DNA of 64,000 nt from an uncultured Lachnospiraceae bacterium (GTDB lineage: Bacteria > Bacillota > Clostridia > Lachnospirales > Lachnospiraceae), in NCBI GenBank assembly GCA_902761225.1, contig CACWJQ010000014.1, positions 12,698 through 76,697 on the forward strand. The letters run 5' to 3'. The notes beneath the pieces were generated by a model, which made no database searches, was not told where the DNA came from, and worked only from the letters and a program-made list of their open reading frames with translations. A program made the translations under genes and the position numbers. Numbering within the stretch: the first letter of the stretch is position 1; each line of letters begins with the position of its first letter. This document shows, one piece after another, positions 44,592 through 64,000 of the stretch.

Positions 44592-44688
44592 CCTGATACG
44601 GGCATACGCACACTTGTCAGATCAGACTCAAAAATAAACGGCGGAAGAAATCTTCCGCCGTTTTTCATTAACCTTTTATCACGTCAGA

Positions 44689-47427: not shown

Positions 47428-47452
47428 CTTATTCTCCGATATCTTGCGGGGA

Positions 47453-47740: not shown

Positions 47741-47823
47741 ATATGATTCTCCGTCCGCACAGGGCGGATCAGCTTCCTTCAAAACAACCGGTATGCCAAA
47801 TGATTATTATACACTAAAAACGA

Positions 47824-49575
47824 CTATTTTGAAAGCAGGCACACCCTGTCGCCATGAACCCCATCTTCCATCAGCACGGTGATGGAGGTAAATCCGTACA
47901 TGCTTCCAAGCTCCGACATTACCCTGTCCCTGTCAACTCCGATACCTTCTATCACGATAAGATCGTGCTCTGCGCCGATGCGCTCATCATATACGGAGAG
48001 CTCATCTTCCTTAAGGAGCAGACAATTACTGTAATTCATAAGCTCAGGAACATTTCTGTAAAAACCGGTCCCGTCATATACCACCAGGGCATCATGGGAT
48101 GCGTATCTTTCGGAAAGACTTATCTGTGAGGAATACCCGGTGAACAGATAATCCGGCTCCGATACAGCGGCAAGCACAATGCACATCACGCCGCACAGTA
48201 TCAGTGCAAAATTGTAGACGCCCTTTCTGAAACCTTCCGTTCTGATGAACCTGTCACCGATAAAGGCAAGTGTAAAAGCAATGCCTATGGAAAAGCACAT
48301 GCTCACAATGGGAAAAACAGGCATCATATACCTGTCCACCGTATAGGGTGATATCTTACTGACCACAAGCAGATATCCCAGAGCCGATGTGCAGAGCACC
48401 GGAGCATAGGCCTTCATCCTGCGGGTGCCGAGAGCGATAAGACATCCTGCCGCCATGATCATAAGGATCACACATACTGCCTGTCTGGACCATGCAGTCT
48501 CCTCAGCAAGTATCAGGGCAAAAGCCTTAAGCTTATCGGCATATCCTCCAAGTCCCGACAGACTGTCCCTTACAGAGTCCCCTATCCTTGTTCCGAAGAG
48601 ATCGTGATACACAAATGGATACAGGACAAGCCCCCATACAGCGGAGATCAGCATCACGCGGATAAGATTCCCCACAGTCCTCAGTTTTTTCTTTGATGAC
48701 AGGTATATCACAAGGGATACGATAAGGAAAAAGTAATAGATGCATACAAAGTACTGGGTCAGAAATCCCAGGACCGTCACCAGGATAAGAGTCTTATTCT
48801 TCTTCGTAAAGTCATCCTTATCCTCAAGCTTTTTAAATACGATGTAGGTAAAAGCAAGGCAGAAGAAAGCCGTCATGGCATACATTCTGATAAGGAGGAC
48901 AGTATCTATCCCCGCGGGCGAAAGTCCGTAGAACAAAGCACAGACCGGTCCCAGATATCTTCTGTGAACGATATCCCGGAAGAACAGATTGATGATCACA
49001 AGAGAGCCCGCCATAAAGATCATGTTAAGAATGCATCCGGGCCATACAGAAAGCGAGCCGAAGGAAATAAGGGAATAAACCGCAGAGATAACATTCAGCA
49101 GCATGAAGTAAAGGGGAGGATGATTGTCGGTGGTGGTGTTGTAATATGCGGAAAGTGCGATGACCGAATCCTTGCGGTAGAAAGTGACATATTCCGTCAT
49201 ATCCTCCGAAGTCATCCACTGGGGAGTATCGTATACATCAGCCGTATAATTCGCCGCGGTTGAGGCCGACCTTCTGGTGACCACATCCTTTACCTGGGAT
49301 CGTAGATTGGACAGTAAAGTCCCGAAACTGTCACTGTAGATCTCCGCACGATAATACTTCTCGAGCCTGCCCTCCGGCTGGGTCGGAGTGATCCATGGGG
49401 TGAACTCAGAATTGGAAAGCTCATAGCTGAGGATCTCATCCATGTGATAGCCTTCCTTACGGGATACGAAAAAGACATCAAAGGCAAGCACAATGATGAC
49501 AGAAAGCATGGCAAGTATAAAAAATTTACTGTCCTTTTCTTTCATGACCGGATCATTTACAGACATAGATGTCAT
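47824..49575 (-). CDS. GT-C-type integral membrane glycosyltransferase (PMT/ArnT-like)
   Basis: GYHMDE acidic motif after TM1, DNHPPLYF and IRMY; about 12 TM helices. Confidence 0.75.
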   Translation of the reverse strand: MTSMSVNDPVMKEKDSKFFILAMLSVIIVLAFDVFFVSRKEGYHMDEILSYELSNSEFTPWITPTQPEGRLEKYYRAEIYSDSFGTLLSNLRSQVKDVVTRRSASTAANYTADVYDTPQWMTSEDMTEYVTFYRKDSVIALSAYYNTTTDNHPPLYFMLLNVISAVYSLISFGSLSVWPGCILNMIFMAGSLVIINLFFRDIVHRRYLGPVCALFYGLSPAGIDTVLLIRMYAMTAFFCLAFTYIVFKKLEDKDDFTKKNKTLILVTVLGFLTQYFVCIYYFFLIVSLVIYLSSKKKLRTVGNLIRVMLISAVWGLVLYPFVYHDLFGTRIGDSVRDSLSGLGGYADKLKAFALILAEETAWSRQAVCVILMIMAAGCLIALGTRRMKAYAPVLCTSALGYLLVVSKISPYTVDRYMMPVFPIVSMCFSIGIAFTLAFIGDRFIRTEGFRKGVYNFALILCGVMCIVLAAVSEPDYLFTGYSSQISLSERYASHDALVVYDGTGFYRNVPELMNYSNCLLLKEDELSVYDERIGAEHDLIVIEGIGVDRDRVMSELGSMYGFTSITVLMEDGVHGDRVCLLSK

Positions 49576-51148
49576 ATCCTGCTACAGATGATTTAAATTC
49601 AGCGCCGGCAATGCTCCTCACATCAGTTCCCTCAGGAAGCGCAAGGAAATCCCCGTGCGATACCTCCTCACCATAGAAACGCTGTGGAGTGGACCACAGG
49701 AAAAATCCGTTAAGATCACCTCTCAGGGCTCCCACCTGAAGCTCCCCGTCCGAAAGCTCAACCAGGATATTGGAATCGTCATACAGTGTGTATCCGTGGG
49801 TAAGTCCGTTGTCCATCAGATATCCGGCAACTGCCCTGCGGGCTTCATTCTTATCGTTGGTTGCAAGGGAATATGATATCTTGAGCACGCTGAGTGCAAG
49901 GCAGAAGGCAAGAGCGGCCAGATAGACCTGCCTGAATGCCGTATCGCTTTCCCTTGTAAGCCATATGACAAGCATGGGAAGTGCCATATATATGCATGAG
50001 GAAAAATATCTCGGTGTAAGTGTGGTATCGGTAAATGCAAGGAAGAATGTCATTATTGCAAAGCCGCATATAAAAAAGTGGACAAAGAACAGATCCGACA
50101 TGTCGGACACAGTGAAATTGTCCAGCCCTCCAAGAGATCCCGTTCCCTGTGACACATCCCCGAAGATCCTCTTAAGCAGTACAAACATAAGGAAGATCAT
50201 GACAAAGGCCGCCACGGTGACCACTCCCCTTAAGGAAAGAACGCTTCCTCCCGGGATGTATCCGAAGATCTCAAGAAGGCATCCGATGACGGAAGCAATC
50301 CTCTCATACCATATACCGTTATTGATCGGTACGAAGGATACAGATTCATATGTGGTAAAAACATATGATGAGCGTATATAGACAGTGTTATATACATATC
50401 CGGCAAGAGCTGCAGCCGATGAACATGCAGCGATCACAAACAGCCTCATATTGGCACGCCATTTTTTCAGCGCTCCCTCAGAGATCCCGCATATCCTGTA
50501 CATTCTCCATATACCCGTAAGGATCAGCGGAGCATAGATCATAAGGAAATACCTGACACCGGACGCACCGCATATAATGCTAAGTACCCCAAGCATCACG
50601 CACCATGCACTCTTCATATTGCGGGAGTACTCTCCCACATCTATGCGTCTTACAAGCCCTATGCAGAGGAACATGAGTATCATGTGTGACATATAGGTAT
50701 TACCCAGCTGCATATGCTGGGCTATGGTCTCAGATATTGGAAGAAGGAGCACAGCCGAAGAAAGGGCCACATATTTTCTCTCATATCCGTACATCATGAA
50801 AAAATATGACAGCACAAGGAATGCATAGAAAAAGATATTGGTGATCACACGTACAGCCGCCCAGCTGCCCATCATCTTAAGAAGAGGCACGAACAGAAGC
50901 TGGGTATAGGCAATACGGAATTCTGTGGAATAATACCATTCGGGACTTGCGATATAATGCCCTGTATCCCCGAGAAGATCGGAAAAGACCATCTCCGCGG
51001 ACATATCGGAATCGATCCAGTTCTGTCCCCATACGATATTCAGTATGAGCAGCAGAACGAAGGAAGCCGCAAGCGGTATATAGTATTTTAAAGCAGATCT
51101 GTCATCAGCCGAAAAGCGGCTGTTACCGGTTTTCAAAATCGTATTCAT
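49553..51148 (-). CDS. Polytopic membrane protein, probable GT-C fold
   Basis: DSDMSAE acidic loop after TM1, WYYSTE and PRYF; many TM helices. Confidence 0.6.
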   Translation of the reverse strand: MNTILKTGNSRFSADDRSALKYYIPLAASFVLLLILNIVWGQNWIDSDMSAEMVFSDLLGDTGHYIASPEWYYSTEFRIAYTQLLFVPLLKMMGSWAAVRVITNIFFYAFLVLSYFFMMYGYERKYVALSSAVLLLPISETIAQHMQLGNTYMSHMILMFLCIGLVRRIDVGEYSRNMKSAWCVMLGVLSIICGASGVRYFLMIYAPLILTGIWRMYRICGISEGALKKWRANMRLFVIAACSSAAALAGYVYNTVYIRSSYVFTTYESVSFVPINNGIWYERIASVIGCLLEIFGYIPGGSVLSLRGVVTVAAFVMIFLMFVLLKRIFGDVSQGTGSLGGLDNFTVSDMSDLFFVHFFICGFAIMTFFLAFTDTTLTPRYFSSCIYMALPMLVIWLTRESDTAFRQVYLAALAFCLALSVLKISYSLATNDKNEARRAVAGYLMDNGLTHGYTLYDDSNILVELSDGELQVGALRGDLNGFFLWSTPQRFYGEEVSHGDFLALPEGTDVRSIAGAEFKSSVAGYDIYVCK

Positions 51149-52448
51149 ATTTTATTTTGTCGCTCACGCTTATCTCATCACCATTCTGAACTTCAATGAG
51201 TTCAAGTCTGGTCTTCGCTATGATCGTATGCTTTACGCCTGCAGGCAGCTTTATGACATCACCGTCGCTAACATCCATCTTCCTGCCGTCCACTACCACT
51301 GTACCCTCACCCTCGGTAATGGTCCACACCTCATCTCTTCTTTCGTGGGAATGGTAATACATGTGATGACCCGGAAGAAGCGTAACCTTTATGGTAAGAC
51401 TGGTTCTGGTCGAATCCAGGACCTTGAAGGATCCCCAGCTCTTCTCGGAGTACTTGATCTCACCTGCGATGGAATCCACTATAGGCTTAATATAACTTGA
51501 CTGATGCTTGTCGCTTACAAGTATCCCGTCGGGGCCGGCAGCGACCACGACATTTTTCAGTCCCATGCAGACGATGGGGATATCCAGATCGTTGATCGCC
51601 GAGGTATTCTCCGTATCCCCGCCGATCACCACATTTCCGAAGCTTGACTTCTCCATGGTCTCTGCAAGCGTATTCCAGGTTCCCACATCCTTCCACTGTC
51701 CGGAATGTCTGAGTACCCTGATATCATCCCCATTCTCAAGTACGGCATAGTCAAAGCTTATACTTTCAAGTTCCTCATATCTGTCATACAGATCATCATA
51801 TCCCTTATATCCTATGGCATCCCTTGCTATGTCCAGAACTGTCCGTGCCCTGAAAGCAAAAACTCCGGCATTCCACAGAGCTCCCTCTCTGATAAGTTCC
51901 GCAGCCTCTTCTTCCGAAGGCTTTTCCTTGAACCTGGTAACTCCGCTTATCTCTTCCCTGCTTTCCGGAATGATATACCCGTACTTGGCTGTGGGAAATG
52001 TAGGTTCTATACCAAGCAGGCATATGCCCCCATCCTTACTCCTGACCATCTGCTCAAGTGTTATGAAGGATCTGAAATACTCATCATCAACATAAGGATC
52101 CACAGGGCATATTATCACAGGCTCTTCGGGATCAACCCCTTTTTTGTCCACAAGGAAAGAAACCGCGAGGACGATGGCCGGGAATGTATCCCTTCTGCAG
52201 GGTTCAGGCGATATTCCCACACTGTCTCCGAGTTGATTGACAATGGAAGAAAGCTGGGCCTTTGATGCCGCAATGGTAACATCGGCACCGGGTGCCTGCG
52301 AGACGATCTGTCTGTAGACCCTCTGTACCATTGATTCCGTTTCACCGTCCGGAGACCTGAAAAAACGGATGAACTGTTTACTTCTCACTTCATTGGAAAG
52401 CGGCCAGAGCCTTCTGCCCGAGCCGCCGGAAAGCAATACGATATTCAT
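51123..52448 (-). CDS. manC: Mannose-1-phosphate guanylyltransferase with C-terminal cupin (PMI type II)
   Basis: LSGGSGRRLWPLS...SKQF, FKEKP, WNAG, SFDYAVLE and DVGTW; cupin motif HSHERRDEVW. Confidence 0.9.
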   Translation of the reverse strand: MNIVLLSGGSGRRLWPLSNEVRSKQFIRFFRSPDGETESMVQRVYRQIVSQAPGADVTIAASKAQLSSIVNQLGDSVGISPEPCRRDTFPAIVLAVSFLVDKKGVDPEEPVIICPVDPYVDDEYFRSFITLEQMVRSKDGGICLLGIEPTFPTAKYGYIIPESREEISGVTRFKEKPSEEEAAELIREGALWNAGVFAFRARTVLDIARDAIGYKGYDDLYDRYEELESISFDYAVLENGDDIRVLRHSGQWKDVGTWNTLAETMEKSSFGNVVIGGDTENTSAINDLDIPIVCMGLKNVVVAAGPDGILVSDKHQSSYIKPIVDSIAGEIKYSEKSWGSFKVLDSTRTSLTIKVTLLPGHHMYYHSHERRDEVWTITEGEGTVVVDGRKMDVSDGDVIKLPAGVKHTIIAKTRLELIEVQNGDEISVSDKIKYEYDFENR

Positions 52449-53488
52449 TATTTCATTTCCGCTTCTGATGAAACCTTGGCCATATCAGCTTCCATCATCA
52501 TCTTAACGAGTTCTTCGAAGGATGTTTCCGAAGGATCCCATCCCAGTTCTTCTCTTGCTTTTGAAGGATCACCGAGAAGATTGACCACATCGGTAGGTCT
52601 GAAGAAATCGGGGCTCACCTCAATAAGCACCTTTCCCGTAGCCTTGTCGATACCCTTCTCATCTATTCCCTCACCGGTAAATTCAAGCTCGATGCCGGCG
52701 TAACGGAATGCCAGAGTGCAGAACTCTCTTACCGAATGCTGCAGACCGGTTGCAATGACATAATCATCGGGAGTATCCTTCTGAAGCATCAGATACATAC
52801 ACTTTACATAGTCACCCGCATATCCCCAGTCACGAAGTGATGAGAGATTCCCGAGATAGAGCCTGTCCTGAAGTCCTGCCTTTATCCTTGCAGCTGCCAG
52901 GGTGATCTTACGGGTAACAAAATTCTCACCACGTCTTGGTGATTCATGATTGAACAGGATCCCGGAGCATGCAAACATTCCGTATGCCTCGCGGTATTCC
53001 TTGACGATCCAGTACCCGTACTGTTTTGCGACAGCATATGGAGAATAGGGATGAAAAGGTGTCTTCTCACTCTGGGGAACTTCCTCCACCTTTCCGTACA
53101 GCTCCGAGGTGGAGGCCTGATAGATACGGCAGGTCTTCTCAAGTCCTGTTATCCTCACTGCCTCAAGTACCCTGAGAACTCCGGTGGCATCAACATCCGC
53201 TGTGAACTCGGGGACGTCAAATGATACCTGAACATGGCTCTGAGCCGCAAGATTGTATATCTCATCAGGTCTCACCTCACCTATTATCTTGACCAGGCTT
53301 AGAGAATCGGTAAGATCACCGTAATGCAGGCGAAAATCCGGTCTCCCCTCAAGATGGGCAATACGTTCTCTGTATTCGGTGGAGGATCTGCGGATAATTC
53401 CGTGGACCTCATAGCCCTTCTCAAGAAGAAACTCTGAAAGATAGCTTCCATCCTGTCCGGTGATACCTGTGATAAGTGCTTTTTTCAT
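52448..53488 (-). CDS. gmd: GDP-mannose 4,6-dehydratase
   Basis: [38 protein letters not shown] and FVTRKIT motifs. Confidence 0.97.
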
Positions 53489-53537
53489 AACTTTTCGTCC
53501 TATATACAAGGCATTTGATATGCCTTATATCCCGTGA

Positions 53538-54734
53538 TCATTTTCTGTAATATTCCGCAAGCTTTCTTACGGCGTGTATGGTATCTTCCACATCCTTATC
53601 ACTCATCCTGGGATAAAGCGGGATACTCATGATACCCTTGTAGACCTCCTCGGCATTGGGACACATACCCTTTTCATATCCCAGATGTCTGTAGTAAGGG
53701 AACCAGTATACCGGCACGTAATGAACCTGGCACTGTACATTCTCGGCGCTCATTGCATCGAAGAATTCCCTCCTGGTACATTTAAGCTTATCAAGATCAA
53801 GTCTTATGATATACAGATGTCTGGATGTATCCGAGTTCGGTATCTCCTTCTGGACAATGATGCCCTCCACATCCGCAAAGGCCTCGTCATATCTCTTTAC
53901 TATCTCCTTGCGTCTTGCGATAAAATCATCGATCCTGTCCATCTGGCTCATAAGGAGCGCAGCCTGGAAATCCGTCATCCTGTAATTGTATCCGAGGGAT
54001 ATCTGCTCGTAATACCAGACGCCCTCATGAGGTGCATCTTCCATCTGCTCCTCATCATGGGTGATACCGTGGGCGTGGGCAAGAACAAGCTTATTATAAA
54101 GCTCATCGCTGTTTGTCAGTATCGCGCCGCCTTCACCTGCCGTAACAGTCTTGACGGGATGGAATGAAAAGCAGGTCATATCGGCAAGATTGCCCACCTT
54201 CACTCCGTTGTATGCAGAGCCTATGGAATGAGCCGCATCCTCGATAAAGATAAGTCCGAACTCATCGCATATCTCACTGATCTCCTTCACCCTGACTACC
54301 TGTCCGGTAAAATCAACCGCTATGACAGCCTTGGTCCTGGGAGTGATATGAGCTCTTATACTGTCCGGATCGATATTGTATGTCTCAGGATCGATATCCG
54401 CGAAAACAGGAGTTCCCCCACAATAGAGAACACAGTTTGCGGAGGCTGCAAAGGTAATGGGAGTTGTGATCACCTCGTCCCCTTCACCGATGCCCGCTGC
54501 TATGCATGCACAGTGAAGCGCGCTTGTTCCGCTGTTTACCACAACTGCATGCTTCGCGCCGGTATAGCTTTCAAGTCTTCTCTCAGCCTCGCTTACCTTG
54601 GGACCGCATGTGATATACGGACCCTCCAGTACCTTTCTGACTGCTTCTATATCATCTTCATTGACCCACTGTCTCCCGTAGAAGATCTTGTCCTCCCTGA
54701 CAGGGGTTCCACCCAGTATTGCGGGTAATTCCAT
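53538..54734 (-). CDS. DegT/PseC-family PLP-dependent sugar-nucleotide aminotransferase
   Basis: NSGTSALH, TFAASAN, IEDAAHS, FSFHPVKTVTAGEGG and GYNYRM motifs. Start MELPA follows GGAGG. Confidence 0.9.
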   Translation of the reverse strand: MELPAILGGTPVREDKIFYGRQWVNEDDIEAVRKVLEGPYITCGPKVSEAERRLESYTGAKHAVVVNSGTSALHCACIAAGIGEGDEVITTPITFAASANCVLYCGGTPVFADIDPETYNIDPDSIRAHITPRTKAVIAVDFTGQVVRVKEISEICDEFGLIFIEDAAHSIGSAYNGVKVGNLADMTCFSFHPVKTVTAGEGGAILTNSDELYNKLVLAHAHGITHDEEQMEDAPHEGVWYYEQISLGYNYRMTDFQAALLMSQMDRIDDFIARRKEIVKRYDEAFADVEGIIVQKEIPNSDTSRHLYIIRLDLDKLKCTRREFFDAMSAENVQCQVHYVPVYWFPYYRHLGYEKGMCPNAEEVYKGIMSIPLYPRMSDKDVEDTIHAVRKLAEYYRK

Positions 54735-54763
54735 TGGATATTCCTCCTGAAAAACAGTATTGC

Positions 54764-55525
54764 TTACTGTTCTTCGCTCTTTTTCCTGGCGGCGTTTCTC
54801 AGCCTTACGAACTTCCTGAAGTTCCTCTTTTCCTGAATCCTTGAGATAAAGTAATTCGACGTCTTGAGCTGGCATGCTTCCTCAAAGCTTATGACATGGT
54901 ACAGATTGGTCCTGAGGAAATCGAATATGGTCTCTCTGCCGTCAAGATTCTCATTGTTGGTGTAGATACACATTGTCAGCACACCGCTCCTGCGTCTCTT
55001 CCAGAAAGGGGTGGCGGGAATGCACTTTACTCCCTCCAGCATATAAGGGTTCTTGCTGAGGCCGTCCGATATGTAGTTAAGTCCCAGCTTCTTGCATGCC
55101 CTTAATGTATTCCTGTCATAGGAATGATTGGGCGCTGCGAAGACCTCGGTGTCGCATCCGTTCTGGGCAAGAAAATGCTTGCCCTCTCTTAATTTCTTAA
55201 GCTGTGCATCATATGACATGCCGGCATATTCCGTGGGAACATCACCTGAGATTATCCCAAGGCTCTTACCGGTAGCAAGGTGATATGTTCCGTGCATCGC
55301 AATGCCCCAGCCTTCCGCCTTCAGTTCTCTGATAAGTGACCAGAAATCCCTGTCAACGGTGCTCTTTACAAGCTTGGGATCTCTGTTTTCGGGAATAACA
55401 CACAGCAGGGGCTTGATCCCCATCTCGTCGAAGAATTTCCTGAATATATCGAACTTCTGTCTGTCCATGGTGGGACAGATATCCTCAAGACGTACGACAA
55501 TGGGATGATTGTATTTTCTGCTCAT
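54764..55525 (-). CDS. DUF2334 / polysaccharide deacetylase-fold protein
   Basis: VRLEDICP, IAMHGTYH and FAAPNHSYD (NodB-like) motifs. Confidence 0.75.
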   Translation of the reverse strand: MSRKYNHPIVVRLEDICPTMDRQKFDIFRKFFDEMGIKPLLCVIPENRDPKLVKSTVDRDFWSLIRELKAEGWGIAMHGTYHLATGKSLGIISGDVPTEYAGMSYDAQLKKLREGKHFLAQNGCDTEVFAAPNHSYDRNTLRACKKLGLNYISDGLSKNPYMLEGVKCIPATPFWKRRRSGVLTMCIYTNNENLDGRETIFDFLRTNLYHVISFEEACQLKTSNYFISRIQEKRNFRKFVRLRNAARKKSEEQ

Positions 55526-55631
55526 AATATGCCCTTTCACTCATACGTGGACCGGCCGGTCCACAGCCAATAAGAAACAATTAACGCAGCATTCGGGTAA
55601 ACGAAAGATAAATTTACCCACAATTATATGT

Positions 55632-55660
55632 ATTATATGATTTTTTGGGGATTTAGGCAA
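55632..55660 (-). promoter_or_regulatory. Sigma-A promoter of the glycosylation operon
   Basis: TTGCCT, 17-bp spacer, TATAAT on the minus strand. Confidence 0.7.
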
Positions 55661-55766
55661 CTTTCAGAGCCATCCGAAGACACATTTTCCGCAAAGATCA
55701 TGGCCGGAAGCCAAAGCATATGAGAATAAAAAAACGGACCCTCATTCAAGGATCCGTATCTTCAAG

Positions 55767-55808
55767 AGCTGATGACCAGAATCGAACTGGTGACCTCCGC
55801 CTTACCAA
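55767..55808 (-). pseudogene. 3' half of tRNA-Thr(GGT): attachment-site (att) duplication
   Basis: Minus strand reads TTGGTAA GGCGG AGGTC ACCAG-TTCGATT-CTGGT CATCAGC T. The 5' anticodon strand, D arm and 5' acceptor strand are absent. Confidence 0.88.
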
Positions 55809-55925
55809 CGGGTAAAAATGCTTTGTCCATTTTTTCATAAATTGCCGCAAATTCAAGTTTTATGCAGTCTGCAGCAATTCATTGTTTTATCCCGTTTTTT
55901 GTTTTTTTATATGTTTTTACAATTT

Positions 55926-55947
55926 TGTTAGCCAAATGTTAGCCAAA
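55926..55947 (+). repeat. Tandem 11-bp direct repeat, candidate integrase arm-type sites
   Basis: TGTTAGCCAAA twice, about 120 bp inside the att core. Confidence 0.6.
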
Positions 55948-55978
55948 AACGAACTGCCGAACTCACATCTAAAAACTG

Positions 55979-56581
55979 TTAGGCATTGTAATCTTTATGC
56001 TGATACAAAACAGTCAGGTTATCCCCAAAAACCTTTGTCTTCTGCATCCAGTATAAAATATCTCCGCCATAAACCGCTTTGTCCTTCTTGAAAAAAGACA
56101 CCACGCAACAATACTCAGGGTTCTCTTCCCTATGTTTTAGGAAAATATATACCGTATCCGAATCTCCCTTAAATTGACTCTCTATAATATAGTCGGCATT
56201 GATCAGTGATGCCATATGTGGCTGGTTTCTTGTAGTAAATACTCTGATAATATTGTCAGTATCTATATATTCCTCCAGAAACCTTAGCGAGCTTATTCGA
56301 CTTTGAATGTCTTTATCCGGAACCGGATTCACATAAAATCTGCTATTCTCAAGTCTTGAATCGGTTATCCTTTTCTTATAAATGATATCATCCAATGTCT
56401 TCTTTCTGTTTCGCGGAATATCAATATCCTTTAAATACTGTAATCCTGTCAGATGATAAAAGTCTTCATCACGGAAATCTACTCTTAACTCCAATAGTTT
56501 TCTATTCCTCGACAGTATGAATTTGTACTCATATCTTGATAAAGCAACATATTTTGCAGCCGCTTCATATATTTTATCCAT
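55979..56581 (-). CDS. PBECR4-like (BECR-fold) putative ribonuclease
   Basis: 200 aa with the F-x-H-L-x-G-L-x-Y-L pattern (DFYHLTGLQYL), I-x-A-D-Y and VSFF, recalled from stand-alone PBECR4 proteins. RBS AAGGA. Confidence 0.6.
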   Translation of the reverse strand: MDKIYEAAAKYVALSRYEYKFILSRNRKLLELRVDFRDEDFYHLTGLQYLKDIDIPRNRKKTLDDIIYKKRITDSRLENSRFYVNPVPDKDIQSRISSLRFLEEYIDTDNIIRVFTTRNQPHMASLINADYIIESQFKGDSDTVYIFLKHREENPEYCCVVSFFKKDKAVYGGDILYWMQKTKVFGDNLTVLYQHKDYNA

Positions 56582-56598
56582 GCTATAATATCCTTATC

Positions 56599-56636
56599 AT
56601 GACAAAAAGCCCTACATTCCTGCAGGGCTTTGTCAT
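56599..56636 (-). terminator. Intrinsic terminator between the ncRNA and the nuclease gene
   Basis: ATGACAAA GCCCTGCA-GGAA-TGTAGGGC TTTTT GTCAT. Confidence 0.8.
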
Positions 56637-56789
56637 CACTCTAAGCAACTTTCTTTCGCCGAAGCTAAGATGGGCTATGGTAAGTTGCCACCTTTGTAAA
56701 CCTCCATGTTCACCGCTTCCCATCGCGGATTCCACTTCATCGGCATATAAAGCATTTTTACGAGTGTGCTTCTCGGGAAGTCACCTTCC
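56603..56789 (-). ncRNA. Candidate structured ncRNA upstream of the PBECR4-like gene
   Basis: Bounded by its own promoter and terminator; several hairpins with GNRA/UUCG loops and a loop-loop complementarity. Confidence 0.6.
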
Positions 56790-56824
56790 GATAATATTAT
56801 CGGAAAAGCACTGCAAAAAGTCAA
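56786..56824 (-). promoter_or_regulatory. Sigma-A promoter with an overlapping 20-bp palindrome
   Basis: TTGACT (56824-56819), 17 bp, GATAAT (56801-56796); palindrome TTCCGATAATATTATCGGAA at 56786-56805. Confidence 0.75.
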
Positions 56825-56865
56825 TAGTATTCAAATATGTTTTTTCATCCGAATCAGATTAGGAA

Positions 56866-58098
56866 CTAGCTGCAAAACAAAATATTCCTGAGAACATCCG
56901 CAGCGACTTTATCCATACTCTTTAAGGCATGCCCATATATATCGAGTGTAACACTGGGATTTGCATGTCCAAGCCGCTCTGCTATAGTTTCGATATTTAC
57001 ATTCCTGCCTATAAGCATTGTTGCATGAGTGTGACGCAGATCATGAAGCCTAATAATTGGAAGCTTTTCCTCAGGGTCAGAAACAGAAGAATTATACAGT
57101 TTTAAGAAATCAACAAATTTCTTCGACGGAGTATCAATATACATAATTGATCCAATCGAATCATCGGTTCTGATAAAGATATAATTCTTGTCGAATTCCT
57201 TACCACGATATCCCGTCCATTTTGAACCAACAGAAAGCGATAATTCCCTCTGCTGATTTTTCCATTCTCTTAACCTATCAAAGCATTCCGGAGGAAGAGT
57301 AATCCTCCTGATTGAAGCCTTTGTTTTAGGTTTTTTAATGATTATTCCACCCGACCTGGTCTTTGATGCAGCTTTATTTATATCTATCTCATATTTTTCA
57401 AAATCTATATCCTTCCAGGTAAGCGCAATCATCTCACCCCGTCTGAAGCCGGAATTCAGGGCTATCATATAAAAAACTTGAAACTGATAAGGCAAGGTTA
57501 TCGGATACTCATAGTCGGGTACTGTATATTTCTCTCCGGTTTTTCTCAGGACCCTCGTATGACCTTTTCGCACAACCATATATGTACGTGGTGTAGGATA
57601 GAAACCATTGTCGATACCAGCTGCCCAACCATAATTGCTATTACCACCATCAGAACCCAGTTCAGGATCCATACCTGAATATTTGGTGAAAGTGAAGACC
57701 GAAGACATTCCGTCTTCTTCCATCTCATTATAAATAGCCTGAAGATGTACTGGGGATATTTTTCCAATAACAAGGTTTCCAATAACAGGCACAGCCCTCC
57801 GTTCAAGATTATACTCGTAATCTTCACGGGCACGGATTGTCAGATCTTTATATGTTTGGTCACATTTCCAATACTGTATCACATCGCAAAACGTCAGCCT
57901 ATCTCCCTCAATGTATTTTCCTTCTTTTATCTTATTCTCAAATTCAACAGCAAAGGCCTGCACCTCCTTTTCAGCCTTTGACGGAGCTGATGAAGTCGGC
58001 TTAAATGTTGTCGTTTTAATAATCTGTTTTCCTTTTTGATCTCTTCCGAGAGAAATAGTTATCTGATAGTTATTTCCTCGTTTTTTTATGCTCGCCAT
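56866..58098 (-). CDS. Tyrosine recombinase/integrase; core-binding region interrupted by a foreign-looking segment
   Basis: MASIKKRG arm-binding N-terminus; catalytic GFRRGE, KPKT, HDLRH, LGH and IYGH. Confidence 0.93.
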   Translation of the reverse strand: MASIKKRGNNYQITISLGRDQKGKQIIKTTTFKPTSSAPSKAEKEVQAFAVEFENKIKEGKYIEGDRLTFCDVIQYWKCDQTYKDLTIRAREDYEYNLERRAVPVIGNLVIGKISPVHLQAIYNEMEEDGMSSVFTFTKYSGMDPELGSDGGNSNYGWAAGIDNGFYPTPRTYMVVRKGHTRVLRKTGEKYTVPDYEYPITLPYQFQVFYMIALNSGFRRGEMIALTWKDIDFEKYEIDINKAASKTRSGGIIIKKPKTKASIRRITLPPECFDRLREWKNQQRELSLSVGSKWTGYRGKEFDKNYIFIRTDDSIGSIMYIDTPSKKFVDFLKLYNSSVSDPEEKLPIIRLHDLRHTHATMLIGRNVNIETIAERLGHANPSVTLDIYGHALKSMDKVAADVLRNILFCS

Positions 58099-58115
58099 CT
58101 TTTATCCTCAAAAAA

Positions 58116-58943
58116 TCAGATCAGTTTTGGTATAGTATCACTATCATCACATGAGGTCCGTATTACCTTCTCATCTAATACAGTCATCTGGGCAGGATCA
58201 ACCAAGATTATAGATACAAACAAATTAAGTATCGGAAATGATTTATCTGACAATTTCCTGAATTTCTGCTCATCAGTAGTTACAAATGATATTTTATCCC
58301 CCGCATTTTCCATTGCTCGAAACACAATATGGGAACATTCCTCTATCGAAGCAGGTTCTTGATAATGCATTACCGCAAATGGCTTCTCAACCATATATAT
58401 GAATGCCCAACGCTGAATGGGTTGCTCATATATGGATACCAGAAAATCCAGTTCAGAGGTATTGGGAGTCGAATTTTTATCCTCTCCTCTCCATTTATAT
58501 CCATGCATTGCAAGAGCATTTGTAATCGTCCCGGTAATACGATTTATATTCTGTTCTACCAGCATGGATTTTCTATCATAAATATCCGTCACTGAGTCAT
58601 AATATCGCACCATACGTCCGTCATAAGATCGAGTTAGTTTTTCTTCTTCACTTAATCTTCGTATTAATTTTTCATTCCATATAAAGTTTTCCGGATTATA
58701 TCCGGATGCTAAAAGCAGCTCTTCAATAGTGACTCCATTAGCTGATACCAATGAAATCTTGAGTAAAGTAGATGGAGTAAGCGGATGATCCATCTTCCCG
58801 CTTAAATAGCAATTCAAATAACTTTTGTTCATTCCTATTTCTTTTGCAAATTCGTTCTGTTGACGATCACCCTTAGCCTTCGATAGAACCATTGAAAATT
58901 CGCGACCATCAAATCCATAATCCGTTTCAACTTTTCTACTCAT
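58116..58943 (-). CDS. XRE-family HTH repressor
   Basis: N-terminal HTH (QQNEFAKEIGMNKSYLNCYLSG); divergent from xis. Confidence 0.75.
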   Translation of the reverse strand: MSRKVETDYGFDGREFSMVLSKAKGDRQQNEFAKEIGMNKSYLNCYLSGKMDHPLTPSTLLKISLVSANGVTIEELLLASGYNPENFIWNEKLIRRLSEEEKLTRSYDGRMVRYYDSVTDIYDRKSMLVEQNINRITGTITNALAMHGYKWRGEDKNSTPNTSELDFLVSIYEQPIQRWAFIYMVEKPFAVMHYQEPASIEECSHIVFRAMENAGDKISFVTTDEQKFRKLSDKSFPILNLFVSIILVDPAQMTVLDEKVIRTSCDDSDTIPKLI

Positions 58944-59057
58944 AATGATCTCCTTATTTGAAATCGATATTTGGATTATAACACGTTAATTCAAATAATG
59001 AAACATAAAATTACGCAAAAATAGATAAAAACCTCTTTTGAAAGTTTTATTTATATG

Positions 59058-59086
59058 TTGACAGTTTTATTTATAGATAATAAAAT
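59058..59086 (+). promoter_or_regulatory. Promoter of the xis-AAA operon
   Basis: TTGACA-17-TAAAAT, overlapped by AGTTTTATTTATA direct repeats. Confidence 0.8.
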
Positions 59087-59144
59087 AAATCTGAACCAAA
59101 TAAATGAAACATATGTTCATTCAAAGAAAGAGAGGTAAAAAAAT

Positions 59145-59342
59145 ATGATTACAGACACCATCCCCGAAATGCTTACCATTAAGGAGACAGCTGAACGTTC
59201 AGGGTTATCCTACGACTCCATTCGCAAAAGGTGCCTAAGAGGAGAAATCGTCTGCATACGTAATGGCAGGAAATTCTTCGTGAATTGGGAAAAATTCGTC
59301 GAATATCTGAACACCGGCATCACAGTAACCGATAATATCTAA
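59145..59342 (+). CDS. Excisionase-like HTH protein
   Basis: MLTIKETAERSGLSYDSIRKRCLRGEI...GRKFFVN (HTH_17/MerR-like). Confidence 0.85.
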   Translation: MITDTIPEMLTIKETAERSGLSYDSIRKRCLRGEIVCIRNGRKFFVNWEKFVEYLNTGITVTDNI

Positions 59343-59360
59343 ACAAATGAAAGGAAAGAT

Positions 59361-60515
59361 ATGAACGATACAAAAGAAAAAGCTGTTCTTGATTCAGCTG
59401 CGGCAACAGCTGAAGAACAGCTTCTTTCGTCTAACGACAATAGTATTATAACAAAATCTCATTATGGAGACAACATAAACCAAGTTGTCTCTTCTTCATG
59501 TCAGTCAGCCCTGGAAACATTTACTGTGTCCGAGTTACTAGATATGTCTTTCAAACCTAAAATCCCGGTTGTAGATGGAATAATCAACCCGGGAACTTAT
59601 ATTTTTGCCGGCGCTCCCAAAGTAGGAAAATCTTTTCTCATGCTTCAGTTTGCATATCATATCGCAAAGGGAATACCACTTTGGAATTATCCTGTACGTC
59701 AAGGATCCGTACTATACCTTGCATTGGAAGACGATTACTCCAGACTTCAGCAAAGAGTTGCCAGAATGTTTGGAGAGGAAGGAAATGAAAACCTACATTT
59801 GGCTACAAAATCCAAAACCATCAAAGATGGCCTGATAGAAGAAATGACAAATTTTGCGCAGAAATACCTTGATGCCAGATTAATAATTATCGATACCCTT
59901 AAGCGTGTCAGAGAATATGATGATGCTCCCATTAGTTATGCCTCAGACTATGACATCATGAAACCTCTAAAGGATTTTAGTGATCAGACTGGTATATCGA
60001 TAATAATAGTTCACCACACCAGAAAAATGGCCGCTGATGACATTTGTGAAACCATTTCCGGAACAAATGGGCTGTTCGGAGCTGTAGATGGAGCACTAAT
60101 ACTTCACAAGAGCAAACGCACTGACACTGAAGCTATTCTTAATGTTATCGGAAGAGACCAGCAGGAACTTGAATTGACTCTTGAAATGGAATCCGAAACA
60201 TGCATATGGAACAAAGTTAAATCCGAAACTGAATTGTTTCCTGTAAAGCCTGATCCGATTCTTGTTGAAATCTCGCAATTCATTACTATTGAGAATCCAT
60301 GCTGGGAAGGCACAGCATCAGAACTTATTGAAGCCGTACCTAATATCCAATACTTAATAAAACCAAATACACTTGTCAGAAAACTTAACATCCATCGTTC
60401 TGGCCTATACAAGGATTTCGGAATTCTCTACGAACCTTTGCAAAGGTCCAGCGAAAGAAAGATTTTCAGATTATCTCTTACATTCGATGATTCCTCGAAT
60501 CCATCATATGACTAA
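59361..60515 (+). CDS. AAA_25 / RepA-helicase-like ATPase
   Basis: Walker A GAPKVGKS, VLYLALED, Walker B IIIDT and IVHHTRK motifs. Confidence 0.85.
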   Translation: MNDTKEKAVLDSAAATAEEQLLSSNDNSIITKSHYGDNINQVVSSSCQSALETFTVSELLDMSFKPKIPVVDGIINPGTYIFAGAPKVGKSFLMLQFAYHIAKGIPLWNYPVRQGSVLYLALEDDYSRLQQRVARMFGEEGNENLHLATKSKTIKDGLIEEMTNFAQKYLDARLIIIDTLKRVREYDDAPISYASDYDIMKPLKDFSDQTGISIIIVHHTRKMAADDICETISGTNGLFGAVDGALILHKSKRTDTEAILNVIGRDQQELELTLEMESETCIWNKVKSETELFPVKPDPILVEISQFITIENPCWEGTASELIEAVPNIQYLIKPNTLVRKLNIHRSGLYKDFGILYEPLQRSSERKIFRLSLTFDDSSNPSYD

Positions 60516-60650
60516 TATGTCGATTATGACGATTGTTAAGGTTACGTCATTAAATACTGATATATCGTCATACGTGCGGTATAAAAGTAATCGTCATCAT
60601 CGTCATTACAGTCACTGTGCATTTCAGAATAATCAAAAAAGCAGGAGGAT

Positions 60651-61016
60651 ATGTTAGTGTATCGACATAATAAGATTACTAAAGAAGATATTGCAAATAA
60701 AATCCGCCTCAATAATCTTCTTACAGACGAGAATATCAGTGAAACCGATCGAATAATCATAAGAGCATTCATAAATATTATTTTCGACATGCTTAACTGC
60801 AAGGAAGAATTAATACATTTCGAATTATTTCACTGTTATGTACGAGCTGAAGGAGTAAAAGAAAATTTTTCTTTAATCGGGTATAAAGAGATCCTATATT
60901 CCCTGGATGAAGTTCACAAGAACTGGTCTTCTATCACAAATGAGACTTTCTTCGAATATGCAAAGAAATATCTTTATGACTCAGTTGGTTACTTTATCCG
61001 AAGAAGATATCGATAA
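60651..61016 (+). CDS. Hypothetical protein
   Basis: RBS AGGAGG, 121 aa; 14 bp upstream of the relaxase gene. Confidence 0.65.
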   Translation: MLVYRHNKITKEDIANKIRLNNLLTDENISETDRIIIRAFINIIFDMLNCKEELIHFELFHCYVRAEGVKENFSLIGYKEILYSLDEVHKNWSSITNETFFEYAKKYLYDSVGYFIRRRYR

Positions 61017-61030
61017 TAGCGGAGTATGAA

Positions 61031-62587
61031 ATGGCAAAAAAACGCGTAACAAACCATACCGGCAGAGTTTCGAAAAAGACCGGTAAGCCCTATAGTCCCA
61101 AACATAATGACAGGGATTTTGATACAGAAAATGCAAAAAACATCATTGAAGAACGTACATCTGAGAACATAAATTGGAGATGGACAGATGAACTGACACA
61201 GGTTCAAAAGGATCATATTTCTCTGGCAGTAGGTAAATGTGTTTCCGAAATGAAAAATGAAGATGTAGAGCAACTCTTCTATGAATTAAACTATTCGGAG
61301 TGGCTCGCAGATCAGAACGAAAAACACATCAAATCCCGTCACACAGAACGTATTAAAACCATGGAACAGATCAGGACAAACAAAAACTATTGTCCTGAAG
61401 AAGATGATCTTCAGATCGGTAAATTATCAGATGAGAGAACAGATCCTGAAATACATGATAAATGCATCGAAGAATATATACGGTTTCTTAATGAAGAATA
61501 CGGATCTCATCTTCACATACTTGACTGGAATACGCATAAGGATGAAGCCGGAGTAACACACACGCAGGTCAGATGGGTATGGGATTATACAGATGAAAAC
61601 GGGTTACTGCGTATCGGTCAAGACAAAGCCCTTGAAGCTCTCGGATTTGATCTTCCGATTCCCGAAGGTACAATATTAAAAGATCAAGACGGAAATATTC
61701 TTTATGAAAGGGACAAAAAAGGTAATATAAAGATCGACAAGGAAACAGGAACTCCTATACCACAAACTGCAAAGCGAAGCCGGTTCAACAACCGCAAAAT
61801 GCCCTTCTCTGCAAGAAACAGAGAAAAATGGCTCGATATATGCGAAGCCCACGGTATTGATGTTGAAAGGGAAGCTGACAAAGAGGCAAAATATGGCCGC
61901 GATCTTGAAGAAGTCATTAATGAAAACAAAACCATCGAAAAAAAGAATGAATCTCTAAAAAAAGAAGAATATTCTCTGGAAGAAAAAATACAAAATCTCG
62001 AGGTAAAAGAAACATTTCTAAATACAAACATATCATCACTTGAAATTCAGAAAAAAGATCTCGAAGATGATGTAAAAAGGCTGTGGGAAATCGTCGATAT
62101 AATTGACAAACAGACTGATAAAAAGAGTAATGACAAAACTACGCCAGAACTACTTACGGAAGAAAAAATCAAAGCTATAAAAATAGAGGAACCTATAGTA
62201 GGACACAGATCTCAAATTCTGATACAAAAAGAGGATTTCAAAAACTTAAAACACACTGCCCTCCAAGTTCAAAAACTAAAAAGATCGATCATCAAACCGC
62301 TTCAAGATATTATAGATTCTCTCAAGAAAAAGATCAGTGATCTTATTGAAAAATTAAAAATAAAAGATAACACTATCGATAAGCAGAAAAAGGAAATTTC
62401 CACGCTTAACCAACAGATTAATATTTTAAAAGAACACAGCGCAAATGACAGTTCAAGGGCAACAAATTATCAGAGATATACCGACTACTGCAGAGGTATA
62501 TGCCGTGAAGCAGGCATAAAAATTTTGACTCCGAATGAATTCATATATGGTCATAAAAAAGATAGAGATCAGAGTCACGGCAGGTGA
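61031..62587 (+). CDS. MOB_V/Pre-like relaxase with C-terminal coiled coil
   Basis: HNDR motif I; HKDEAGVTHTQ resembles HxDExxPHxH; long heptad-rich C-terminus. Confidence 0.75.
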   Translation: MAKKRVTNHTGRVSKKTGKPYSPKHNDRDFDTENAKNIIEERTSENINWRWTDELTQVQKDHISLAVGKCVSEMKNEDVEQLFYELNYSEWLADQNEKHIKSRHTERIKTMEQIRTNKNYCPEEDDLQIGKLSDERTDPEIHDKCIEEYIRFLNEEYGSHLHILDWNTHKDEAGVTHTQVRWVWDYTDENGLLRIGQDKALEALGFDLPIPEGTILKDQDGNILYERDKKGNIKIDKETGTPIPQTAKRSRFNNRKMPFSARNREKWLDICEAHGIDVEREADKEAKYGRDLEEVINENKTIEKKNESLKKEEYSLEEKIQNLEVKETFLNTNISSLEIQKKDLEDDVKRLWEIVDIIDKQTDKKSNDKTTPELLTEEKIKAIKIEEPIVGHRSQILIQKEDFKNLKHTALQVQKLKRSIIKPLQDIIDSLKKKISDLIEKLKIKDNTIDKQKKEISTLNQQINILKEHSANDSSRATNYQRYTDYCRGICREAGIKILTPNEFIYGHKKDRDQSHGR

Positions 62588-62628
62588 CCACTCCAACAAA
62601 ATACCTTGGCGGTCTGTGTCATGTAGTA

Positions 62629-62669
62629 CCCCGTACTCCTTGTCGCAAGCGACAAGGGTACAACCGGGG
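62629..62669. other. Candidate oriT hairpin
   Basis: CCCCG-TACT-CCTTGTCGC-AA-GCGACAAGG-GTACAA-CCGGGG nested inverted repeat next to the relaxase gene. Confidence 0.4.
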
Positions 62670-62877
62670 CTCTCCGAGGGGTCTCTTAGGGCTTGCAGCC
62701 CTGCCGACAGCAGCCCGCTCCCAGTGAAAAGAACACAAAAATCCCTCAACGGGATTTTAATGTTTTTTCACCGGCGCAGAAGAATAGTCTTCTGCGAAAA
62801 CCATCCTCGGGAAGCATCTTCCCGACATCATGCATTCCCTCTCAAAAAATAACATAGATTCCTTACTGAAATCTATG

Positions 62878-63555
62878 TTATTTTTTTCTCACACTATCAA
62901 TCTTCCCATCTCTGATCCGCACAATCCTGTCTGCCTTAGCCGCGATTTCTTCGTTGTGCGTGATCATCACAAGGGTCTGCCCATATCTACGGCAAGTCTC
63001 AAGGAAAAGCGATAGTACCTTTTCACTTATCTCAGAATCCAGATTACCCGTAGGTTCATCAGCAAGTATAATGGTCGGTTTATTTGCAAGAGCTCTTGCA
63101 ATCGCAACTCTCTGCATCTGCCCACCTGAGATTTGTGAAGGAAGTCTCTTCTTAAGATCGGCTATCTCAAGTCCCTTTTCGATTTCCTCAAGATATTCCT
63201 TATCTATCTCGCCTTCATCAATAAGTACCGGCATCTCGATATTCTCCTGTACGGTAAGTGCCGGAAGCAGATTGAATGACTGAAATACAAAGCCAACCGT
63301 TTTACGCCTGTATTTTGCCAGTTCCTGATCTGAATATTCAGATATATCAGCACCATCGATGATCACAGATCCCTTAGTCGGACTGTCCAGGCCTCCAAGT
63401 ATATGGAGCAAAGTACTCTTTCCGGATCCGCTGGGGCCTAGGATTGCCAGGAATTCGCCCTTCTCGATCACTGCCGAGAGACCGTTTAACGCAAAAACCT
63501 CATTCTGTCCCTGCTTGTAGATCTTGTATAAAGATTTCAATTCAACATAACTCAT
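62878..63555 (-). CDS. ABC transporter ATP-binding protein (LolD/MacB type)
   Basis: GPSGSGKST, GFVFQSFNL, SGGQMQRVAIARAL and ADEPTGNLD motifs. Confidence 0.93.
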   Translation of the reverse strand: MSYVELKSLYKIYKQGQNEVFALNGLSAVIEKGEFLAILGPSGSGKSTLLHILGGLDSPTKGSVIIDGADISEYSDQELAKYRRKTVGFVFQSFNLLPALTVQENIEMPVLIDEGEIDKEYLEEIEKGLEIADLKKRLPSQISGGQMQRVAIARALANKPTIILADEPTGNLDSEISEKVLSLFLETCRRYGQTLVMITHNEEIAAKADRIVRIRDGKIDSVRKK

Positions 63556-63561
63556 ACCCCA

Positions 63562-64000
63562 TCACTCCTGTCTTGTCAGCATTACGATATTTTTAGAAAA
63601 TTCGTGATTGCCTTTCAGATAACAGATCAGATAATTGACTGCATAGATTGCTGCCCCAGTGGCAACTGCCACAAGTGTCACATTCAATTTATTAACCTTA
63701 CCGGCAATATCCATCAACCGGCAGGTAAGCGGCACGCTTAGTATAACTCCGGCAAGCACTGCCACCCCTGTAACAGCAACAACCTCGATAACGATCAGTT
63801 TAACTATGTTCTTCCTATCCATCCCCATGGCTCTCATGATCCCGTATTCACGAAGACGCATGCTTATATTGATACTTACATTACACAGGATATTAACGAC
63901 CGCCATAAATCCGACACAGACTGCAACATATATAAATGAATAAGTTACTCCCTTAGCCTGTAATAATATCTCCGACTTCTTATCCTTAAGATCAGAATAA
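63562..64000 (-). CDS. FtsX-like ABC permease, C-terminal part; starts beyond the window
   Basis: Frame is open to the window edge: YSDLKD...NILCNVSINISMRLREYGIMRAMGMDRKNIVKLI (FtsX motif). Confidence 0.88.
   Translation of the reverse strand, partial: YSDLKDKKSEILLQAKGVTYSFIYVAVCVGFMAVVNILCNVSINISMRLREYGIMRAMGMDRKNIVKLIVIEVVAVTGVAVLAGVILSVPLTCRLMDIAGKVNKLNVTLVAVATGAAIYAVNYLICYLKGNHEFSKNIVMLTRQE

What the first reader, a model, noticed from the sequence alone, without database searches (positions are those of the whole stretch)
57574..57699. In-frame fragment resembling a Bacteroidota SusC C-terminus inside the integrase
Codons 134-175 read VFTFTKYSGMDPELGSDGGNSNYGWAAGIDNGFYPTPRTYMV. This matches the C-terminal signature of SusC/RagA TonB-dependent outer-membrane transporters (T-x-Y-S-G-x-D-P-E...G-I-D-x-G-x-Y-P-x-P-R-T-Y), lacking only the last strand. 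A monoderm host has no use for such a protein. The segment sits where the second half of the core-binding domain should be, between EEDGMS and VRKGHTR, so that part appears replaced. The left junction has a 6-bp direct repeat (minus strand GTCTTC-g-GTCTTC) and a GAAGAC/GTCTTC inverted repeat at 57701-57717. This is either a real cross-phylum illegitimate recombination that probably immobilised the element, or an assembly chimera.
Basis: partly seen in the sequence, partly recalled or inferred. Interest (0 to 1): 0.75.

Follow-up and report, generated by a model that had tools for sequence, protein, structure and literature searches.

The report
SusC piece in integrase: assembly chimera
A 106-base piece of a Prevotella outer-membrane transporter gene really does sit in frame inside a Lachnospiraceae integrase gene in this contig, but independent assemblies of the likely source sample show the two genes intact and separate, so it is most likely a metagenome assembly error and not a gene transfer.

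Summary
In the 410-aa integrase ORF (56866-58098, minus strand), codons 134-175 read as the C-terminus of a SusC/RagA transporter. The strictly foreign part is 57593-57698 (106 nt). It replaces 169 nt that encode the second half of the core-binding domain and the linker. The 20 nt at 57573-57592 are identical in the integrase and the SusC gene, because both encode PRTYMV.

The biological reading is not supported. Run X1, a bovine gut metagenome, holds 99% of the host-flank words and is the likely source of the contig. Its independent k=31 contigs show:
- the native integrase sequence continuing through the left junction at depth 8;
- native sequence crossing the 20-mer from the other side;
- the SusC piece on a separate low-depth contig with native SusC flanks.

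Five other runs bridge the native 169 nt. No indexed run, GTDB species-representative genome or JGI metagenome contig holds the chimeric junction. Every close homologue that covers the region carries the native segment.

The 20-nt identity is the kind of short shared word at which small-k de Bruijn assemblers mis-join genomes, especially at low coverage. The left junction has zero overlap and is not explained by that mechanism. A real, rare recombinant therefore cannot be excluded without the raw reads.

The parts
56866..58098 (-). Chimeric 410-aa tyrosine integrase ORF as written in the contig
   Evidence: PF00589 at residues 204-393 (E=1.4e-18) and PF14659 at residues 69-126. The native counterpart P0002 is 431 aa.
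57699..58098 (-). Integrase 5' part (codons 1-133 plus the first base of codon 134), matching native L001 with one difference in the stretch compared (57699-57900)
   Evidence: alignment; integrase contigs of X1-X4 match from 57699 upward.
57593..57698 (-). SusC-only foreign segment, 106 nt, encoding (V)FTFTKYSGMDPELGSDGGNSNYGWAAGIDNGFYPT. It replaces 169 native nt.
   Evidence: in X1-X4 this stretch lies on separate contigs with native SusC flanks (RLYVAANNLFTFT... upstream...YMVGVNIKFKDKS downstream).
57573..57592 (-). 20-nt exact identity between the native integrase (LPRTYMVV) and the SusC gene (TPRTYMVG). This is the right junction, in gene sense.
   Evidence: integrase pieces end at 57592 and SusC pieces start at 57573, in all four runs..
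56866..57572 (-). Integrase 3' part (rest of the linker and the catalytic domain), matching native L001 with one difference in the stretch compared (57400-57572)
57698..57699 (.). Left junction (gene sense) with zero shared bases between the parents
   Evidence: SusC contigs match up to 57698 and then continue GGTTATTGG.... Integrase contigs match from 57699 and are preceded by native ...CATTGTTG. The field 'both' = 0.
57701..57717 (.). GAAGAC-ATTCC-GTCTTC inverted repeat, native to the integrase gene
   Evidence: The same bases are in L001.

Best explanation
The SusC-in-integrase fusion is most likely an artefact of metagenome assembly, or less likely of library preparation, and not a DNA molecule that is common in the rumen.

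The sample contains two things. One is a Lachnospiraceae bacterium carrying a small integrative element with an intact 431-aa integrase. The other is a low-abundance Prevotella whose SusC gene happens to share a 20-nt word (ACCACGTACATATATGGTTG, PRTYMV in both proteins) with that integrase.

Coverage was thin (about 3-8x), and in k=31 contigs the native path breaks a few bases from that word. Under those conditions an assembler starting from k of about 20-21 could walk from the integrase 3' part through the shared word into SusC. That step is inferred.

The return to the integrase 106 nt later has no sequence overlap. It was probably made by a later step that joins linked contig ends without checking overlap, such as paired-end scaffolding or gap closing with trimming. 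That step is also inferred and untested. The in-frame outcome needs no selection: the right junction is in frame automatically because the shared word is codon-aligned, and the left junction had a 1-in-3 chance.
For: (1) X1 holds 0.99 of 1039 sampled words of the host flank 44001-54000, against 0.80 for the next run. It matches the element region without any difference. X1 is therefore the likely source run.

(2) In X1's independent k=31 contigs:
- a 3537-nt contig at depth 8.07 runs from the integrase 5' part through 57699 into 163 nt of native integrase sequence;
- a 290-nt contig crosses the 20-mer from the 3' side and continues 4 nt that do not match the window;
- the SusC piece 57573-57698 sits on its own 249-nt contig at depth 2.7, with SusC sequence on both sides.

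(3) Depth over the foreign segment (2.7) is lower than over the integrase flanks (3.9-8.07). That is the opposite of what is expected if the chimera were the main form.

(4) X2, X4, X5, X9 and X25 carry contigs that skip 57593-57698. In X2, X4, X9 and X25 there are 169 letters between the two sides, which is the native form.

(5) X1's share of 0.94 on 57300-58000 equals all words except about 4 junction-spanning ones. A 60-mer in which every 31-mer spans the left junction is in no indexed run.

(6) A 35-nt left-junction pattern has no match in 185,579 GTDB species genomes or in the JGI metagenome contigs.

(7) The chimeric protein is a singleton. The native cluster has 24 members. Twelve of the 15 members listed cover the region and all 12 read ATMKK...RFMEAL there.

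(8) One junction lies exactly in a 20-nt identity.
Against: The left junction has no shared bases, so a plain de Bruijn graph join cannot produce it. The step proposed for it is an inference, and the assembler used is unknown.

Only Logan contigs could be inspected, not raw reads. Logan contigs drop rare variants and words seen once, so a minority of true chimeric molecules in X1 is not excluded.

X1 differs from the window at six host-flank positions, so other reads may have contributed to the contig.

The colinear, same-orientation, in-frame return to the integrase is also what a real patch replacement would look like.
Confidence: 0.85

Rival explanations
1. It is a real, recent in-vivo recombinant. 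Prevotella DNA was taken up by the Lachnospiraceae cell and replaced a 169-nt patch of the integrase gene. One end was anchored by the 20-nt identity and the other was joined illegitimately. This would resemble homology-facilitated illegitimate recombination or short-patch double illegitimate recombination. It would give a minor subpopulation with a dead integrase, which the assembler then happened to follow.
For: The replacement is colinear, in the same orientation, and bounded on one side by a 20-nt perfect microhomology. The left junction has no overlap, which is more natural for illegitimate joining than for a k-mer graph. Both parents are 100% identical to sequences co-resident in the same rumen samples, as expected for a very recent event. 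SPDIR is a documented though very rare mechanism in which ectopic single strands anneal at microhomologies (bioRxiv 10.1101/2023.11.22.568220, abstract seen).
Against: No junction-spanning sequence is found in the likely source run's contigs or in any other run or collection. The native form is the assembled one at depth 8 in that run. Depth over the patch is lower than over the flanks. The protein is a singleton. From my own knowledge, a 20-nt anchor is far below those usually reported for homology-facilitated illegitimate recombination. A single rare event would also have to reach several-fold coverage in a complex rumen community.
Confidence: 0.08
2. It is an in-vitro chimeric library molecule. 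PCR template switching at the 20-nt identity, and/or ligation of two fragments, produced one or a few chimeric reads. At low coverage the assembler incorporated them.
For: PCR-mediated recombination occurs at short identities such as the 20-mer (my own knowledge). Coverage in X1 is low (2.7-8), so single reads can steer an assembler that keeps words seen once. Logan discards words seen fewer than twice, which would explain why the junction is absent from its contigs.
Against: Two independent junctions 106 nt apart, both returning to the same gene in register, would need two rare in-vitro events in one molecule. This cannot be tested here.
Confidence: 0.06
3. The segment is a native, conserved feature of this integrase lineage, or a chance resemblance to SusC.
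For: None was found.
Against: None of the 119 other top integrase homologues carries a TKYSG or GIDNGFYP motif. The 12 listed cluster members that cover the region all have the native segment. The DNA of the segment is 100% identical to SusC contigs with full SusC context. The TIGR04056 and P0121 matches also count against it.
Confidence: 0.01

Closest known systems
Inter-genome chimeric contig (misassembly) in short-read metagenome assemblies and MAGs
   Same: Both parent sequences are present separately in the same sample. One breakpoint lies exactly on a short exact word shared by unrelated genomes. Coverage is low, with a break in the true path beside that word. The junction is absent from an independent assembly of the same run.
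   Different: The chimera is only 106 nt long and returns to the original gene, instead of switching genomes for the rest of the contig. The second breakpoint has no shared word.
Tyrosine integrases of Firmicutes integrative elements and phages (N-terminal arm-type domain, SAM-like/central core-binding domain, PF00589 catalytic domain)
   Same: The flanks are such an integrase. PF14659 and PF00589 are present, and the conserved catalytic-region motifs RRGE, HDLRHT, LGH and YGH are retained. The neighbours are typical of a small integrative element: an HTH regulator, an HTH_17 excisionase-like protein, an AAA_25 replication-type ATPase and a PBECR4 nuclease.
   Different: As written, the protein lacks residues 134-190 of the native form, that is the second half of PF22022 plus the linker.
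SusC/RagA TonB-dependent transporters of Bacteroidota (TIGR04056)
   Same: The fragment matches the penultimate C-terminal motif ...FTFTKYSGxDPE...GIDNGxYPxPRTY at profile positions 947-975 of 981. A relative in a rumen Prevotella MAG is a bona fide SusC with a neighbouring gene that gives only a weak SusD-family match.
   Different: Only 36-42 residues are present. There is no plug, no barrel and no final strand.
Homology-facilitated illegitimate recombination / short-patch double illegitimate recombination
   Same: A short heterologous patch replaces a short resident stretch, with a microhomology at a junction.
   Different: There is no evidence that the recombinant molecule exists. One junction lacks any microhomology.

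Membership tests
SusC/RagA TonB-dependent transporter (TIGR04056) | Sequence match to the family profile | tested here: inconclusive
   The fragment matches profile positions 947-975 of 981 with E=0.0015 and 16.9 bits, far below the whole-protein cutoff of 368. It is a fragment of a member's gene and not itself a member. Its origin is settled instead by 100% DNA identity to SusC contigs and 91% aa identity to P0121.
SusC/RagA TonB-dependent transporter (TIGR04056) | Plug domain, 22-strand barrel and terminal aromatic strand present | tested here: not met
   Only 106 nt are foreign. The final strand GVNIKF is absent.
SusC/RagA TonB-dependent transporter (TIGR04056) | Adjacent susD-like gene | tested here: not met
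   The window neighbours are integrative-element genes. In the Prevotella relative L003 the downstream gene gives only a weak SusD-family (NanU) match: E=9.6e-6, 24.9 bits against a cutoff of 425.
Tyrosine recombinase / phage integrase (PF00589) | Catalytic domain with the conserved catalytic-region motifs | tested here: met
   PF00589 E=1.4e-18. Invariant columns include R219/R220, K242/K255, H352, R355, H378 and Y388. Assigning these to the canonical R-K-H-R-H-Y catalytic positions is my reading of the alignment.
Tyrosine recombinase / phage integrase (PF00589) | Complete core-binding (central) domain and linker | tested here: not met
   PF22022 covers residues 87-130 only, at 14.1 bits (cutoff 27), in the window protein. 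In native P0002 it covers residues 87-165 at 34.1 bits.
Assembly chimera | Both parental sequences present unjoined in the source sample | tested here: met
   X1 has native integrase contigs and a separate SusC contig. X1 is the likely source run.
Assembly chimera | Breakpoints at exact words shared by the parents | tested here: inconclusive
   The right junction has a 20-nt identity (met). The left junction has zero overlap (not met).
Assembly chimera | No reads span the junctions | not testable with these tools
   X1 is held only as Logan contigs. The junction words are absent from contigs and from the word index, but the raw reads were not available.
Illegitimate recombination (HFIR/SPDIR-like) | Recombinant molecule demonstrable in a population or in independent samples | tested here: not met
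   No junction was found in 24+ runs, in GTDB species-representative genomes or in JGI contigs. The protein is a singleton.

The most novel reading that the evidence does not exclude
A rumen Lachnospiraceae cell took up Prevotella DNA and, using a 20-nt identity as the sole anchor, replaced part of its integrative element's integrase gene with a SusC fragment. That would be a natural, cross-phylum, short-patch illegitimate recombination caught in a metagenome, and it would have locked the element in place.
Probability: 0.08. Interest if true: 0.55.

Novelty: not a real feature. Interest (0 to 1): 0.1.

Why it matters
If it were real, this would be a rare natural example of cross-phylum microhomology-anchored patch replacement, and of how an integrative element becomes immobilised. 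As it stands, its value is practical. It is a clean, small example of an in-frame inter-genome chimera hidden inside an otherwise good MAG contig. It produces a plausible-looking singleton fusion protein in public protein databases. Such cases can be recognised by three signs: a short exact word at a breakpoint, both parents present in the same run, and a lower depth over the insert.

Tried and rejected
- Pfam gave no hit for the excerpt alone. NCBIfam did.
- The protein search with the 45-aa fragment returned only three short JGI fragments, because of the word index.
- A degenerate DNA scan of the JGI metagenome contigs for the donor found nothing. The GTDB scan found one Prevotella relative at about 80% DNA identity by eye from the alignment, not the donor itself.
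- The look-up of the window's own integrase to learn the record name, and perhaps the assembler, returned nothing.
- I looked for a crossover microhomology at the left junction. The TCTTC shared by both parents is offset by 7 nt and duplicated in the window, so the junction is not a simple 5-nt microhomology join.
- X1's loose-end sequences at 55764 and 62924 are not elsewhere in the window, so they give no evidence for an excised circle.
- I rejected a native or chance origin of the segment.

Full report
**What is in the sequence**

The minus-strand ORF 56866-58098 encodes a 410-aa tyrosine integrase. Pfam finds PF14659 at residues 69-126 and PF00589 at residues 204-393.

The resemblance to SusC is more than an impression:
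- NCBIfam TIGR04056 (SusC/RagA) matches the excerpt at profile positions 947-975 of 981, E=0.0015.
- A JGI protein fragment, MDPELGSEGGSGYGWAAGIDNGFYPTPRTYMVGVNIKF, is 91% identical, E=2.5e-11 in a 5.8-billion-protein database.
- A degenerate DNA scan of GTDB species genomes found one relative, in an uncultured rumen Prevotella MAG (L003). Its ORF is a bona fide SusC (TIGR04056 E=3.9e-183). The downstream gene gives only a weak SusD-family match (NanU, E=9.6e-6, 24.9 bits against a cutoff of 425).

**What was replaced**

The closest integrase, P0002 (431 aa, a cluster of 24 members), is encoded on L001. Its DNA differs from the window at only 2 of the ~370 flanking bases compared, about 99.5% identity. 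The window follows it up to ...GGAATGTCTTCGG (window 57699). It then carries 106 nt of SusC sequence (57698-57593) in place of 169 native nt. It rejoins at ACCACGTACATATATGGTTG (57592-57573).

The lost 57 codons (ATMKKLHTAINSVMDYAFRMELIKNNPCDRVRLPKIQKDEEIRYFEYDEAKRFMEAL) are the second half of the central core-binding domain plus the linker. PF22022 spans residues 87-165 at 34.1 bits in P0002. It stops at residue 130 with 14.1 bits in the window protein.

None of the other 119 top integrase homologues has a SusC-like motif. Twelve of the 15 cluster members listed cover the region, and all 12 have the native segment.

The host is a Lachnospiraceae bacterium. Its GroEL is 95-99% identical to MAG proteins named that way. 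The fragment is therefore indeed foreign to the phylum.

**The junctions**

The right junction, in gene sense, lies in a 20-nt stretch that is identical in both parents. The integrase encodes L-PRTYMV-V and the SusC gene encodes T-PRTYMV-G with the same codons. In every run examined, integrase contig pieces end at 57592 and SusC contig pieces begin at 57573.

The left junction has no shared base. SusC contigs match to 57698 and then continue with their own sequence; on the gene strand this reads ...CAATAACC|TCTTCAC, i.e. RLYVAANNLFTFT. Integrase contigs match from 57699 and are preceded by native CAACAATG....

The inverted repeat at 57701-57717 is native integrase sequence.

**Does the joined molecule exist?**

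A word search with 57300-58000 found many bovine and ovine gut metagenome runs. The best, X1, holds 0.94 of the words. Most others hold about 0.75, which corresponds to the integrase flanks only.

X1 holds 0.99 of 1039 words of the host flank 44001-54000, against 0.80 for the next run. It matches the element region with no difference. It is therefore very probably the run from which the contig was assembled.

Logan's contigs of X1 are an independent k=31 assembly, and they do not contain the chimera:
- A 3537-nt contig at depth 8.07 passes from the integrase 5' part through 57699 into 163 nt of native sequence.
- A 290-nt contig at depth 3.9 covers 57307-57592 and goes on for 4 nt that do not fit the window. 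It crosses the 20-mer in a non-chimeric configuration.
- The SusC piece 57573-57698 lies in a 249-nt contig at depth 2.7, with 43 and 80 nt of SusC sequence on either side.

Depth over the patch is thus lower than over the flanks. If the chimera were the main form, the patch depth should be at least as high as the flanks.

X1's missing 6% of words corresponds to about 4 of 68 sampled words. That is the number expected to span the two junctions.

Further negative results:
- A 60-mer in which every 31-mer spans the left junction is in no indexed run.
- A 35-nt junction pattern is absent from the 185,579 GTDB species genomes and from the JGI metagenome contigs.
- In X2, X4, X9 and X25, single contigs bridge the locus with 169 letters in place of 57593-57698. 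X5 also skips the patch.

**Most likely mechanism**

A 20-nt word shared between unrelated genomes is where a small-k de Bruijn graph (k about 20-21, the usual starting value in iterative metagenome assemblers; my own knowledge) merges two paths.

In X1 the native path is covered for 163 + 4 of its 169 nt, with no contig bridging it. There is therefore a coverage break a few bases from the shared word. Similar breaks occur elsewhere in the 20 kb examined.

With the true continuation missing or weak, the walk from the integrase 3' part into the SusC path is the expected error. This step is inferred.

The second junction cannot arise this way because there is no shared word. I infer a later step that joins paired-end-linked contig ends and trims them without verifying overlap. 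This is untested, and the assembler is unknown: the look-up of the record failed.

The reading frame is no argument for biology. The right junction is codon-aligned by the nature of the shared word, and the left one had a 1-in-3 chance.

**Rivals**

A real recent recombinant cannot be excluded. It would be a homology-facilitated or short-patch illegitimate recombination after uptake of Prevotella DNA; SPDIR is described in bioRxiv 10.1101/2023.11.22.568220. It remains possible because only contigs, not reads, were available, and contigs drop rare variants. The overlap-free left junction and the colinear return to the gene would suit it. However, it would have to be a minority form in X1 and absent everywhere else. 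I give it about 8%.

An in-vitro chimeric library molecule is another minor possibility, about 6%.

A native or chance origin is refuted.

**Consequence if the ORF were real**

The protein would keep its N-terminal arm-type region and its catalytic domain, but would lack half of the core-binding domain and the linker. It would very probably be inactive. This follows from established knowledge of tyrosine recombinase architecture and was not tested.

**Verdict**

The fragment is a Prevotella-type SusC C-terminus. The fusion is most likely not a real feature of any genome. Interest is low. The decisive test is a count of junction-spanning raw reads in the source run.

Noticed in passing
window 56640-56745 (-): Rfam 'drum' RNA motif (RF02958) scores 38.8 bits (gathering score 43), E=1.3e-4, with full model length. 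It lies about 120 nt downstream of the integrase stop codon, between the integrase and the PBECR4 nuclease gene.
   Followed up: no
window 55766-55808 (-): A 43-nt stretch reads as the 3' part of a tRNA-Thr(GGU), from the anticodon loop TTGGTAA through the T-arm to the acceptor end; this is read by eye. In run X5 the same 43 nt sit in a different context that completes the anticodon stem. ARAGORN finds no full tRNA in 54000-64000. It is probably the att remnant at the left end of the integrative element. The intact tRNA must lie beyond the window, or the island is composite.
   Followed up: partly
window ~55810-62600: A small mobile element of about 7 kb. It carries a PBECR4 nuclease (55979-56581), the integrase, an HTH regulator (58116-58943), an HTH_17 excisionase-like gene (59145-59342), an AAA_25 ATPase (59361-60515) and a 518-aa protein with no Pfam match (61031-62587). 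Run X5 carries it without this host's flanks, and L001 has the same gene order.
   Followed up: partly
L003 12-3032 (Prevotella MAG); also the X1 SusC contig: This SusC does not end at the usual terminal strand ...GVNVKF. It continues for about 170 aa into an OmpA-like peptidoglycan-binding domain (NF053611 E=3e-11, residues 894-984). The SusC contigs of the window's runs likewise read on, GVNIKFKDKS.... This would be a SusC-OmpA_C fusion subfamily in rumen Prevotella.
   Followed up: no
window 62924 (inside the ABC ATPase ORF 62878-63555): X1 and X5 both have contigs that match from 62924 rightward but carry a different sequence to the left (CCCTGGATCTTACCATCCCGGATCCTTATG). This suggests an alternative junction or a variant of this region in the same samples. 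That sequence is not elsewhere in the window.
   Followed up: partly
window 46017-46391 (inside the PBP1A gene 44689-47427): A high-depth (88.7) X1 contig touches the window with only 20 nt on a side and skips 373 nt. This is probably another short shared word with an abundant unrelated genome, the same kind of coincidence that seeds chimeras.
   Followed up: no
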